Shown piece by piece: positions 333-7,731 of a DNA stretch of 15,220 nucleotides (position 1 is the first letter of the stretch; every line of letters starts with the position of its first letter). The notes under the pieces are model-generated. The model saw only the letters and a list, made by a program, of their open reading frames with translations. It searched no databases and was not told the origin of the DNA. The stretch comes from Nitrososphaerota archaeon (GTDB lineage: Archaea > Thermoproteota > Nitrososphaeria > Nitrososphaerales > Gagatemarchaeaceae): assembly GCA_003135575.1 (NCBI GenBank), contig PLCG01000104.1, positions 15,631-30,850 of the forward strand. The letters are read 5' to 3'. The position numbers and the translations under genes are program-made.

Positions 333-375
333 CCCGACGGTTACCAGCCTCTTCCCTGACCCGCTAGGTTACCAG
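328..375. repeat. two tandem copies of CCTGACCCG-N(2-3)-GGTTACCAG
   Basis: CCTGACCCGacGGTTACCAG at 328-347 and CCTGACCCGctaGGTTACCAG at 355-375. They start at the stop codon of the 66-332 ORF and lie upstream of the 409/469 ORF. Confidence 0.9.
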
Positions 376-408
376 AACCGGAGAACAAGTGGATAACCAT
401 AATACAGA

Positions 409-5140: not shown

Positions 5141-5197
5141 CGAACCACCCGAGGATGCAACAGAACCGTGCCTGGCGCACGGGCCATAAAATGGACC

Positions 5198-5233
5198 AAA
5201 AAAAGGGGAGAGGCGGATATGAATAATATCCGC
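5198..5233 (-). terminator. hairpin plus T7 tract (read on minus strand)
   Basis: Perfect 8-bp stem GCGGATAT (5213-5220) / ATATCCGC (5226-5233) with a 5-nt loop. On the minus strand it is followed, after 8 nt, by TTTTTTT (5198-5204). Confidence 0.3.
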
Positions 5234-5326
5234 ATTCATGTGAGAGCTCAGGATGGCTCTTCGCCTTCCCGGTGCTGCGAGGAGGGGTGATGACGGTTGG
5301 ATATTAGCCTAGCGACTCGACTGGGG

Positions 5327-5513
5327 TAGCAGCTCGCCACGCTCCGCTTTTCCCGCATGCATTCGATAAGCGCTCCACGCACTGGTGGGCGTATTCTGAC
5401 GATTCAACGGAAGCGGAGCATGCCACACTCAACGGCAAAGCTCTCGGAGCAAGAGCCCCGTGCTCAGCGGATATGCAGTGGTCAGGCGCGCTGCCCTATC
5501 CCAACTGTCTCCA
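5327..5513 (-). ncRNA. candidate IS-encoded guide (bridge/seek-type) RNA region
   Basis: About 190 nt of non-coding sequence lies 3' of the transposase stop, inside the repeat-bracketed element. It has a perfect 9-bp long-range stem GCTCCGCTT (5341-5349) / AAGCGGAGC (5411-5419) plus nested stems. The region 5' of the CDS is only about 10-20 nt. Confidence 0.3.
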
Positions 5514-6659
5514 CTAGGCTACGCCGCCACCTCCTCCCTTTTCGAGGTCCTCGAGCTTCTTGTTCGTGAGCGCCTCGTTCTCCCACCTCCAGTGCTCCCT
5601 CGTCTTCAGGACGTGGTAGATCATTCGGAGCAGCTTCTTCATAGTAAGGATGTGGGCTCGTTTCCCGCTTCTCGTCCTCTCCTTCTGGTGGGCGTAGTAG
5701 TGGTGCAGGTGGGGATTCCAATGCATGACCGTATCGGTCATGATTCCGAGCGTCCACCTGGCTATCGACGGACCGTCCTTGGACATCCTCCCTCGCCTCT
5801 TCACGTTCGCGCTGTCGCCGCTCTCGGGTATGATTCCGAAGAAGCTCGCTAGGTGGTCGATGGTCGGGAAGCGATTGACGTCCCTGACGTACGATGAGAG
5901 CAGCGAGGCGAGGTAGTAATCGACGCCAGGAATCGTCATGAGGAGTCTCACATCGTCATTGTCCATGACCAGAGCCATGATTCTCTCCTCGAGTGGAGTG
6001 CATCGTTCCTCGTAGAACGTGAGCTTCTCCATCATGATCTTCAGGACGAGGTCCCTGTCGTCGCCGAACCTGACCGCTCGAATGGCTTCCCTCCTCACGC
6101 CACTGAAGTTGCTGTCCGTCTTCGGGAGCGTGGGGTAGACGTCTTCCCTCTTGAGATAGCTGGTTATCGAGTTCTTTGTTCGGGTGATCTCCACGCCCAA
6201 CTTTACCCGCTGGATGAGGAGGTCTCTGAGAATCTGCTCTTCCCTCGTCAGGAGGTGCGACTCGGGGAGCATGTCCATGAAGAGGAGTCTCGCAATCTTC
6301 TCGGAGTCTGCCCGGTCGTTCTTCTTCTTTGACCTTACGATGAGAGCGAGCTCCTTCGGGTGAGCGACCGTGATGTTCTGGTATCCCATCGTCCTCAGCC
6401 TCCTGTTGACGGAATAGGCCATCATGCTCGCCTCGTACCCGATCCTCGCCTCCTTCGGTATCCTGCTGGAGAAGAGGGTATAGCCCTCGTCGTCCATGGA
6501 GAAGTTGAACCTCTCCGATATCTCACCAAGGGAAGAGTACATCGTAGCGACGCTGAACTCTTCTCCCAGATCCAGTCCTACGGCAGGTGTCCTCAACATG
6601 CTCAATCGCGTCTCTTGAGCCCTCTTCCCGTTTTTCTCTTTCTTCATCGTTCTCTTCAC
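5514..6659 (-). CDS. IS110-family (DEDD) transposase
   Basis: 381-aa ORF. The N-terminal VGLDLGEEF motif is of the VGIDVSK type. The C-terminal MTIPGVDYYLASLLSSYVRDVNRFPTIDHLASFFGIIPESGDSANVKRRGRMSKDGPSIARWTL is typical of the IS110 C-terminal domain. The listed start is GTG 6659. ATG 6647 (GGTGA 8 nt upstream) or ATG 6599 is more likely. Confidence 0.9.
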   Translation of the reverse strand: MKRTMKKEKNGKRAQETRLSMLRTPAVGLDLGEEFSVATMYSSLGEISERFNFSMDDEGYTLFSSRIPKEARIGYEASMMAYSVNRRLRTMGYQNITVAHPKELALIVRSKKKNDRADSEKIARLLFMDMLPESHLLTREEQILRDLLIQRVKLGVEITRTKNSITSYLKREDVYPTLPKTDSNFSGVRREAIRAVRFGDDRDLVLKIMMEKLTFYEERCTPLEERIMALVMDNDDVRLLMTIPGVDYYLASLLSSYVRDVNRFPTIDHLASFFGIIPESGDSANVKRRGRMSKDGPSIARWTLGIMTDTVMHWNPHLHHYYAHQKERTRSGKRAHILTMKKLLRMIYHVLKTREHWRWENEALTNKKLEDLEKGGGGGVA

Positions 6660-6670
6660 CCAATGCAGTA

Positions 6671-6698
6671 GCGACTCCCATGCCTGACTGGGAGTCGC
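6671..6698. repeat. perfect 10-bp inverted repeat (hairpin) at the transposase 5' side
   Basis: GCGACTCCCA (6671-6680), loop TGCCTGAC, TGGGAGTCGC (6689-6698). Confidence 0.95.
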
Positions 6699-6746
6699 GG
6701 GCGAAGAGCCATCCGAAAGAGAGCTCTCACAATTCAGTCAACGGCG

Positions 6747-7161
6747 TCAGAAGACCGGCTCGATGCCGAGCTTCGCGAACTTCCTGTCGGTGGTTATGGC
6801 CGAGTCAGCGCCGAACTCAAGGCCCGTCGCCGCGATGAGGGTGTCGAAGTAGGAGCCTCTCCAGGTGGCTGTCTTGGACAGCTCTGCAGCCCGTCGGAGG
6901 ACGCCGGGAGTCAGCGGCAGTACTTTGCCCGGGGAATCAGCCCGGCCACCGTCGAGTGGATACCGGCCCTCGACTCGCTGCCCTCGACTCGCTGCCCTCG
7001 CCATGCAACTTCAGCTCCAGGTCGAATTCCATGAGAGTGACCGAGGGCATCAGGATGTCCTGACTGAGGCCGATTTCTATGACGTGCTCGTTCGCCTTCT
7101 TGAAGTGTGGGTCGTTCCTGTCCCTGAAAGCGATCAGGACGACGGTGTCAATGATTCGCAT
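6747..7161 (-). pseudogene. vapC: PIN-domain VapC-type toxin, disrupted
   Basis: The N-terminal half (6937-7161) reads MRIIDTVVLIAF...LMPSVTLMEFDLELKLHG. The C-terminal half (6747-7004, other frame) reads ...KVLPLTPGVLRRAAELS...SYFDTLIAATGLEFGADSAITTDRKFAKLG. Together they make one PIN domain. The break coincides with a 14-nt tandem duplication. Confidence 0.75.
6967..6994. repeat. 14-nt tandem duplication CCCTCGACTCGCTG x2 (plus partial CCCTCG)
   Basis: Bases 6967-6980 and 6981-6994 are identical, and 6995-7000 repeats the first 6 nt. Because 14 is not a multiple of 3, the duplication shifts the vapC frame. Confidence 0.95.
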
Positions 7162-7327: not shown

Positions 7328-7471
7328 GCCCTTGGCCTCCTGAGCTGGTCGCGTCCTGATAAGGATTGCCGCGCCGTTGGTCGAAACCCGGGGGCGGTGC
7401 CCCGGCAGGCGGGTCGGGCCTGTCGGGGTAGATCAGGTCCAGCACCTTCTTCGTCCTGTCCTGAGGTAAGA

Positions 7472-7558
7472 GTGCGCTGCCAGGCCCGAATTGCTTCGGG
7501 CAGGAAACACGCACCCTCCCTCCCAAACCCGGCGTGATACTTTCGCATCACCGGGCTT
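7472..7558 (-). ncRNA. group II intron 3' fragment-like element (domain V, candidate domain VI)
   Basis: Minus strand 7558->7525 reads AAGCCCGGUGAUGC-GAAA-GUAUCACGCCGGGUUU (34 nt). It folds as a 9-bp lower helix containing an AGC triad with G.U, a 2-nt AC bulge, a 5-bp upper helix and a GAAA tetraloop. A second extended hairpin at 7515->7472 is capped by GCAA and has an unpaired A at 7478. Confidence 0.55.
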
Positions 7559-7731
7559 TCACCCCTACGTCCTCCGTCTTCTTCTTGTGCATCGGATGGA
7601 TTGATTTCAGCTACCTGTTTTGGGCAGCCTACTGTGGCATGTCGCGCACAAAGCGCCCATTCTGCCGCTGGAGCAATTAAGCGCCCCTGCCTAGCCCAAA
7701 ACTGGTGTTTTCCGCCCGCCAAGATGTTTCG

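What the first reader, a model, noticed from the sequence alone, without database searches (positions are those of the whole stretch)
5327..5513. Structured ~190-nt non-coding arm 3' of the IS110 transposase: candidate bridge/seek-type guide RNA
Inside the repeat-bracketed element almost all non-coding sequence lies downstream of the transposase. The 5' side is only about 10-20 nt if translation starts at ATG 6647. The arm contains these stems:
- a perfect 9-bp long-range stem (5341-5349 with 5411-5419)
- a nested stem, CTCCAC (5373-5378) with GTGGG (5386-5390)
- GAGCA (5447-5451) with TGCTC (5461-5465)
- CAGCG (5466-5470) with CGCTG (5488-5492)

Reports from 2024 showed that IS110/IS1111 recombinases use an element-encoded structured RNA whose loops base-pair with target and donor DNA. 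In the IS1111 group this RNA is encoded 3' of the CDS. This layout matches that arrangement. I could not identify guide segments by eye.
Basis: partly seen in the sequence, partly recalled or inferred. Interest (0 to 1): 0.6.

Follow-up and report, generated by a model that had tools for sequence, protein, structure and literature searches.

The report
Archaeal IS1111-type bridge (seek) RNA
The non-coding stretch after this archaeal jumping gene's transposase encodes a folded guide RNA whose loops spell out the insertion site and the element's own ends; this RNA-guided transposition was discovered in 2024, so it is a well-supported new example, not a new mechanism.

Summary
The element is an IS110-family insertion sequence of the IS1111 type on the minus strand.

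The 3' non-coding arm is 281 nt and carries a ~215-nt structured RNA (5520-5306). The fold is a closing helix with two arms, each an internal loop.

- **Fold:** across 62 distinct relatives, 89.9% of pair cells are paired and 29 of 43 pairs show compensatory changes.
- **Independent model:** a covariance model built without the window's clade hits only 5340-5484(-), at E 2e-14.
- **Loop A reads the target:** its 5' strand is complementary to the right flank. With 32 distinct guides, cognate pairs match 6.6 of 8 positions against 3.2 for non-cognate pairs. Its 3' strand copies the left flank plus a TG core.
- **Loop B reads the element's ends.**
- **Empty sites:** uninterrupted target sites with a single TG exist in related genomes.

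RNA expression and transposase activity were not tested. This is a new member of a known kind, and of moderate interest.

The parts
6741..6748 (-). Left half of the target site (LT), host DNA. It lies just after the stop codon of a co-oriented PIN-domain ORF.
   Evidence: The flank is similar among independent insertions. It continues into the right half in uninterrupted sites. PIN C-terminal half, Pfam.
5233..6740 (-). Whole insertion sequence, counted with a TG at each end. One TG belongs to the target, so the element is 1506 bp plus the shared core.
   Evidence: Homology among copies stops at these points. Empty sites carry a single TG.
6700..6731 (-). Left subterminal inverted repeat, in 11-bp and 15-bp blocks, starting 9 nt inside the left end.
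   Evidence: It pairs with 5239-5265. Both arms change together in the 69% paralog.
6671..6698 (-). Conserved hairpin in the 5' untranslated region of the left end. Function unknown.
   Evidence: Its stem sequence is nearly invariant in about 30 displayed relatives.
5514..6647 (-). Transposase gene: DEDD/RuvC-like N-terminal domain plus Tnp C-terminal domain, 377 aa from ATG 6647.
   Evidence: Pfam PF01548 and PF02371. NCBIfam NF033542 scores 163.6 bits against a cut-off of 140. The catalytic Ser aligns to IS621. D26, E72, D111, D114 and S279 are invariant.
5306..5520 (-). Predicted bridge/seek RNA: closing helices P0 and P1 plus two arms.
5466..5477 (-). Loop A, 5' strand (guide 1). Positions 5467-5474 are complementary to the top strand of core G plus the first 7 nt of the right flank (5233-5226).
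   Evidence: With 32 distinct guides, cognate pairs match 6.62 of 8 against 3.23 for non-cognate pairs; 0 of 20000 permutations reach the observed total.
5427..5437 (-). Loop A, 3' strand (guide 2). Positions 5429-5436 are identical to the last 5 nt of the left flank, plus TG, plus the next base of the left end (6745-6738), so they pair with the bottom strand.
   Evidence: With 25 distinct guides, cognate pairs match 4.32 of 6 against 1.75; 0 of 20000 permutations.
5438..5465 (-). Helix P3, which caps loop A. This clade has an extra inserted hairpin here.
   Evidence: Pair 88/117 of alignment A4 is AU in 35 sequences and GC in 27.
5392..5407 (-). Loop B, 5' strand (guide 3). It is conserved and probably pairs with nt 4-11 of the left end (6737-6730), with a 2-nt bulge.
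   Evidence: Compensatory changes occur in four clades (L005 group, L071/L082/L083, L016, L065 group). The register is not proven.
5357..5370 (-). Loop B, 3' strand (guide 4). Positions 5359-5364 are identical to the last 5 nt of the right end including TG, plus the first base of the right flank (5237-5232).
   Evidence: With 13 distinct guides, cognate pairs match 7.08 of 8 against 4.81; 0 of 20000 permutations. The flank position matches in 85% of guides, with 4 different letters seen.
5341..5419 (-). Arm B as a whole: helix P4 (5408-5419 with 5341-5356), loop B and helix P5 (5371-5391).
5239..5265 (-). Right subterminal inverted repeat, ending 6 nt inside the right end.
5196..5232 (-). Right half of the target (RT), host DNA: a hairpin followed by a run of T.
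   Evidence: The same sequence follows the single TG in uninterrupted sites of related genomes. It varies more among otherwise near-identical copies than the element does.

Best explanation
The region is the guide-RNA gene of an IS1111-type member of the IS110 family, in a Nitrososphaerota archaeon.

**Fold.** The RNA is about 215 nt, in the sense of the transposase gene, spanning 5520-5306. It forms a closing helix carrying two arms, and each arm is a stem, an internal loop and a capped stem.

**Loop A is the target-binding loop.**
- Its 5' strand pairs with the top strand of the right half of the insertion site.
- Its 3' strand pairs with the bottom strand of the left half.
- The two matches overlap at a TG core.

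**Loop B is the donor-binding loop.**
- Its 3' strand matches the last bases of the right end plus the core.
- Its 5' strand probably matches bases 4-11 of the left end.
- Each 3' strand also carries one base of the partner DNA, like the handshake guides of IS621.

**Mechanism.** The DEDD/Ser transposase bound to this RNA would bring the circularised element and the target together and exchange strands at TG.

**What is shown.** The fold and its covariation, the guide-flank and guide-end covariation, the element ends, the core, and the uninterrupted target.

**What is inferred.** That the RNA is made, probably as the 3' part of the transposase transcript since no promoter is seen. That it binds the protein. 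The chemistry, taken by analogy with IS621 and ISEc11.
For: - **Transposase family and catalytic residues:**
- **Ends of the element:** defined from six copies and 80 metagenomic relatives.
- **Empty sites:** uninterrupted sites of the form left flank-TG-right flank occur at least 9 times in genome G036 and in six other genomes of the family. One has 55 of 60 left-flank bases identical to the window.
- **Structure:** 43 pairs with 89.9% of cells paired, against 28-48% when partners are slid. 29 pairs have double changes, and 0 of 500 shuffles reach the observed values. Many G-U pairs occur on this strand only.
- **Independent covariance model:** 69.5 bits, E 2e-14, a single hit in the window and two in the genome.
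- **Guide covariation:**
- **Paralog:** a 69% paralog 8 kb away keeps the stems but has different loop strands matching its own different flanks.
- **Order of matches:** the top-strand match lies 5' of the bottom-strand match, as reported for IS1111 seekRNAs (PMC11187229).
- **Location:** in the right end, as predicted for 93% of IS1111 elements (PMC11208160).
Against: - There are no expression data, so RNA ends and processing are unknown.
- No promoter was recognised upstream of the RNA. The consensus scan covers only bacterial promoters.
- Rfam has no matching family, so no published model could be applied.
- The pairing of loop B's 5' strand with the left end needs a bulge, and one left-end variant is not compensated.
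- In the largest metagenomic clade the right end finishes in CG while the left end starts with TG. The core is therefore not always a perfect repeat.
- The transposase (377 aa) is longer than the 330-350 aa given for IS1111 transposases.
Confidence: 0.88

Rival explanations
1. The conserved arm is only a DNA-level end of the element. Transposase-binding sites and subterminal repeats are recognised by protein, and no RNA is involved.
For: The arm contains the right subterminal inverted repeat, and sequence-conserved blocks such as 5392-5407. There is no direct evidence of a transcript.
Against: Helices are kept through compensatory changes and through G-U pairs that would be A-C on the other strand. 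The variable loop strands track the flanking host DNA, which protein-binding sites of the element would have no reason to do. The inverted repeat lies outside the folded part.
Confidence: 0.04
2. The arm is a 3' untranslated regulatory structure of the transposase mRNA (stability, termination or translation control) with no guide function.
For: The closing helix overlaps the stop codon (5514-5520), and no separate promoter is visible.
Against: This does not explain why 32 distinct loop sequences match their own right flanks and 25 match their own left flanks, with 0 of 20000 permutations reaching the observed totals. It also does not explain why a second loop copies the element's own end.
Confidence: 0.04
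3. The loop-flank matches are a by-product of history: pieces of target captured into the element, or relatedness of the sampled copies.
For: Many metagenomic copies are related and share a target. Shuffle tests on related sequences can overstate significance.
Against: The tests used one representative per distinct guide. The matches lie in internal loops 100-250 nt from the ends and on opposite strands. They meet precisely at the junction, and uninterrupted sites share only TG with the element.
Confidence: 0.02

Closest known systems
seekRNAs of IS1111-family elements (ISEc11, ISPa11, ISKpn4, ISPst6; Siddiquee et al. 2024, PMC11187229)
   Same: - The long non-coding region lies downstream of the transposase gene.
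- Subterminal inverted repeats are present.
- The RNA carries one segment complementary to the top strand and one to the bottom strand of the target. These overlap in the target, with the top-strand match 5' of the bottom-strand match.
- Targets are repeated hairpin-like intergenic sequences.
   Different: - The host is an archaeon (Nitrososphaerota).
- The transposase is longer: 377 aa against 330-350.
- The serine motif ends in SA instead of SG or TG.
- The inverted repeat is bipartite and longer (11 + 15 bp).
- Here the RNA is only predicted, not purified.
IS621 / IS110-group bridge RNA (Durrant et al. 2024, PMC11208160; Hiraizumi et al. 2024, PMC11208158)
   Same: - Two internal loops, with the target-binding loop first and the donor-binding loop second.
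- Each loop reads both strands around a 2-nt core.
- An extra base in each loop matches the partner DNA, like the handshake guides.
- The C-terminal domain is similar, with an aligned catalytic Ser (PDB 8wt6, E 8.7e-5).
   Different: - The RNA is encoded in the right end after the gene, not in the left end before it.
- The order of strand matches within the loop is reversed.
- The core is TG, not CT.
- The two arms hang from a long closing helix that reaches the stop codon.
- Protein similarity to IS621 is weak outside the C-terminal domain.
ISPpu9 of Pseudomonas putida, with the Ssr9 small RNA downstream of the transposase gene (PMC12288879; abstract only seen)
   Same: An IS110-family element inserted into repeated extragenic palindromes, with a small RNA gene after the transposase gene.
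   Different: It is bacterial. Extra orphan copies of the RNA gene exist there, whereas the covariance model found no orphan copy in this genome.

Membership tests
IS110 family (RNA-guided DEDD transposases) | Transposase with DEDD_Tnp_IS110 and Transposase_20 domains | tested here: met
   Pfam PF01548 (E 3e-10) and PF02371 (E 1e-17). NCBIfam NF033542 scores 163.6 bits against a cut-off of 140.
IS110 family (RNA-guided DEDD transposases) | Catalytic D, E, D, D and the C-terminal Ser | tested here: met
   D26, E72, D111, D114 and S279 are invariant in five relatives at 58-86% identity. The Ser aligns with the catalytic Ser region of IS621 in 8wt6. The assignment of the DEDD residues rests on spacing, not on a structure.
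IS110 family (RNA-guided DEDD transposases) | Site-specific insertion with no duplication beyond a shared core dinucleotide | tested here: met
   Uninterrupted sites have one TG where the inserted copy has TG at both ends.
IS1111 group | The longer non-coding region lies downstream of the transposase gene | tested here: met
   281 nt downstream against 93 nt upstream. The criterion comes from PMC11187229 and PMC11208160.
IS1111 group | Subterminal inverted repeats (7-17 bp in the literature) | tested here: met
   An 11-bp block and a 15-bp block lie 9 nt and 6 nt inside the ends, and they co-vary in the paralog. They are longer than the quoted range.
IS1111 group | GL-P----S(t)G motif and transposase length of 330-350 aa | tested here: inconclusive
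   The motif reads G-I-I-P-x4-S-A, an SA variant. The paper lists SG, TG and occasionally TA. The length is 377 aa, outside the quoted range.
IS1111 group | Placement of the transposase within the IS1111 clade in a tree | not tested
   No reference set of ISfinder proteins was available in the tools.
Bridge / seek RNA | Conserved secondary structure in the non-coding end, supported by covariation | tested here: met
   fold and covariation; covariance model.
Bridge / seek RNA | An internal loop whose two strands match opposite strands of the target and overlap at the core | tested here: met
Bridge / seek RNA | A second loop that matches both ends of the element (the donor) | tested here: inconclusive
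   The 3' strand clearly tracks the right end. The 5' strand matches the left end only with a bulge, with four compensatory cases and one uncompensated variant.
Bridge / seek RNA | The RNA is expressed, binds the transposase and is required for transposition | not testable with these tools
   No transcriptome or biochemical data are available.

The most novel reading that the evidence does not exclude
The element may have no promoter of its own, and its guide may be the processed 3' end of the transposase transcript, with the closing helix covering the stop codon. The RNA is programmed to insert, in one orientation only, between the stop codon of a host gene and that gene's hairpin-plus-T-run. 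Host read-through would then drive both the transposase and the guide, and the host terminator would end the transcript. That would be a terminator-targeting, host-transcription-dependent lifestyle for an RNA-guided IS in archaea.
Probability: 0.2. Interest if true: 0.5.

Novelty: new member of a known kind. Interest (0 to 1): 0.35.

Why it matters
- **A fully decoded natural example.** It gives an IS1111-type bridge RNA from soil archaea with ends, TG core, both target guides, one clear donor guide, handshake-like positions and the natural uninterrupted target. About 60 relatives carry some 30 different programmed targets.
- **Material for engineering and comparison.** Such natural reprogramming series are useful for engineering bridge recombinases and for comparing the IS1111 and IS110 RNA layouts.
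- **Corrected annotation.** The element's boundaries in this window are corrected. It also explains why the copy sits right behind a PIN-domain gene.
- **No change to the mechanism.** It does not alter the known picture of how these elements work.

Tried and rejected
- **Rfam.** The scan at gathering and at permissive thresholds found no bridge-RNA family. It returned only chance snoRNA and lncRNA hits in the element, and a group II intron piece elsewhere.
- **Empty sites in the window's own genome.** None were found. Contig C104 instead ends exactly at the right half of a second target copy, which suggests a collapsed second IS copy.
- **First guide-1 test.** A fixed register gave a weak per-position signal, because loop length differs by 1-2 nt among clades. 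Repeating it with the same three offsets allowed for cognate and non-cognate pairs gave the clear result.
- **Uninterrupted site for the paralog.** The search was inconclusive: 52 near-matches in 97 genomes, about what chance gives, and two exact matches in another genus.
- **Terminator scan.** The bacterial-type scan did not flag the target hairpin, because 8 nt separate the stem from the T run. 'Terminator-like' is therefore my description, not a tool result.
The idea that the internal 16-nt repeat blocks (5310-5325 and 6669-6692) are the element's ends or the guide's target was rejected. Homology among copies and the empty sites put the ends at 6740 and 5233.
- **Loop B register.** A register pairing loop B's 5' strand with the first four bases of the left end was considered. 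It fits the clade-specific changes less well than the register starting at base 4.

Full report
**What is there**

The window is part of contig C7 of a 2.34-Mb, 87%-complete genome. The closest public relatives of its transposase are MAGs labelled Nitrososphaerota or Thaumarchaeota.

An intact 377-381-aa ORF lies on the minus strand at 6647/6659-5514. It carries the two Pfam domains of IS110-family transposases. It passes NCBIfam's equivalog model 'IS110 family RNA-guided transposase' at 163.6 bits against a cut-off of 140.

Its C-terminal domain aligns to the IS621 transposase of PDB 8wt6 (E 8.7e-5), with the catalytic serine region aligned. D26, E72, D111, D114 and S279 are invariant among relatives at 58-86% identity.

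**True ends of the element**

I compared three sets of copies:
- a 69%-identical paralog 8 kb away on the same contig (locus L002);
- three 86% copies in one other MAG, plus one in a third;
- 80 metagenomic loci.

Homology starts at window 6740 and stops at 5233. Beyond these points the flanks of the window's clade are similar but vary more than the element itself. That is expected of a conserved target.

A pattern made of the last 4 nt of the left flank, 0-4 free bases and the first 7 nt of the right flank was searched in 97 genomes of the family. The version with exactly TG in the middle recurs at least 9 times in genome G036 and is present in six other genomes.

In those places the right flank continues as in the window: a hairpin, then a T run. 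One place (L129) has 55 of 60 left-flank bases identical to the window's, namely the 3' end of a PIN-domain gene, and no insertion.

Four conclusions follow:
- The element is bounded by TG on both sides, and one of the two TGs belongs to the target.
- It has bipartite subterminal inverted repeats (6731-6700 with 5265-5239) that co-vary in the paralog.
- The non-coding sides measure 93 nt (5') and 281 nt (3').

**The fold**

The 3' arms of 62 distinct elements align well. RNAalifold and the single-sequence fold agree on the architecture:
- a closing helix, P0 (5520-5514 with 5312-5306) and P1 (5502-5485 with 5338-5323);
- arm A, made of P2, an internal loop and P3;
- arm B, made of P4, an internal loop and P5.

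On my 43-pair structure, 89.9% of cells are standard pairs, against 28-48% when the 3' partners are slid. 29 pairs show changes on both sides, and none of 500 shuffles reaches any observed measure. Several pairs are split almost evenly between AU and GC. Many G-U pairs are compatible only with this strand.

I built a covariance model from 57 arms, excluding the window and its 81-86% clade. It hits the window once, at 5340-5484 on the minus strand, over its full length, at 69.5 bits and E 2e-14. It hits the whole genome only there and at the paralog. It is present in 7 of 97 genomes of the family, a patchy pattern typical of a mobile element.

**The guides**

The four loop strands were extracted by alignment column and laid beside each element's own junctions.

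*Loop A, 5' strand.* Its reverse complement reproduces the last base of the core plus 6-9 nt of the right flank. In the window, 5467-5474 pairs with 5233-5226. With one representative per distinct guide (32), cognate pairs match 6.62 of 8 positions against 3.23 for non-cognate pairs. None of 20000 permutations reaches the observed total.

*Loop A, 3' strand.* It is identical to the last 4-7 nt of the left flank, then TG, then the next base of the left end. In the window, 5436-5429 equals 6745-6738. With 25 distinct guides, cognate pairs match 4.32 of 6 against 1.75, with 0 of 20000 permutations.

*Loop B, 3' strand.* It is identical to the last 5-7 nt of the right end including the core, plus in 85% of distinct guides the first base of the right flank. 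In the window, 5364-5359 equals 5237-5232. With 13 distinct guides, cognate pairs match 7.08 of 8 against 4.81, with 0 of 20000 permutations.

*Loop B, 5' strand.* It is conserved, as is the left end. The best register pairs it with left-end bases 4-11 around a 2-nt bulge. Four clades with changed left ends carry the matching change in the RNA, but one left-end variant is not compensated. I regard this pairing as probable, not shown.

The paralog in the same genome keeps the stems but has different loop strands that match its own, different flanks.

**Comparison with what is known**

- Siddiquee et al. found that IS1111-family elements have the long non-coding region downstream of the gene. 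Their seekRNA has a top-strand match 5' of a bottom-strand match, overlapping in the target. That is the layout seen here.
- Durrant et al. predicted bridge RNAs in the right end of 93% of IS1111 elements. They noted donor-binding nucleotides often in multi-loops. Here both loops are simple internal loops on a three-way junction.
- Hiraizumi et al. described handshake guides: bases in each loop that pair with the partner DNA after strand exchange. The extra base at the end of each 3' loop strand here behaves in the same way, and for loop B it co-varies with the target.
- Archaeal IS110 recombinases are already catalogued.
- Differences from the IS1111 description are the transposase length (377 aa against 330-350), an SA rather than SG/TG serine motif, and longer bipartite inverted repeats.

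**What remains open**

- There is no evidence of transcription. I saw no promoter-like element before the RNA, and the tool covers only bacterial promoters. The closing helix overlaps the stop codon, which suggests a 3'-UTR-derived RNA.
- In three of four insertions of the window's clade, a co-oriented ORF ends 9-10 nt before the left end. In the window it is the C-terminal half of a PIN domain. The target's hairpin and T run follow the right end. Host read-through could therefore drive expression. This is inference only.
- In the largest metagenomic clade the right end finishes with CG while the left end starts with TG. This may reflect a tolerated core mismatch or G-T wobble.

**Verdict**

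It is a new member of a known kind, of moderate interest.

Noticed in passing
window 7461-7560 (-): Rfam group II intron domain V/VI match (56.7 bits, E 4e-9) with no intron body nearby.
   Followed up: no
G000:C7:12218-13603 (locus L002), about 8 kb outside the window: A second element of the same family, 69% identical in DNA. It has an intact 386-aa ORF and its own guide strands and target. Two differently programmed relatives sit side by side in one genome.
   Followed up: partly
G000:C104:13090-13132 (locus L003): The contig ends exactly at the first base after the core of a second copy of the right target half. A further copy of the window-type element was probably lost in assembly.
   Followed up: partly
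window 6671-6698 (-): This hairpin in the 5' UTR has a stem sequence nearly invariant across the family. Its loop motif is the same as the conserved motif of loop B's 5' strand, and both change together in the L005 clade. Function unknown; it may be a protein site or a regulator of translation.
   Followed up: partly
loci L121-L133; window 368-379 and 1067-1081: The target is part of a repeated intergenic unit. In genome G036, which has no copy of the element, at least 9 sites share about 60 nt upstream of the target. That stretch includes a motif resembling the GTTACCAGAACC repeats found after gene ends in this window.
   Followed up: partly
window 5298-5312 (-): An A/T-rich, TATA-like stretch directly after the RNA's last helix points towards the right end. 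In a circular copy it could drive transcription across the junction into the transposase gene. Its conservation in the family is only partial.
   Followed up: no
loci L020-L088 (largest metagenomic clade): These elements all target a palindromic GT/CA-rich site (left flank ending GGTG, right flank starting CACACAC). Their right end finishes in CG where the left end starts with TG.
   Followed up: partly
locus L080: This copy has the same guides as L085 but sits at a site matching only 4 of 8 right-flank positions. It may be a natural off-target insertion.
   Followed up: no
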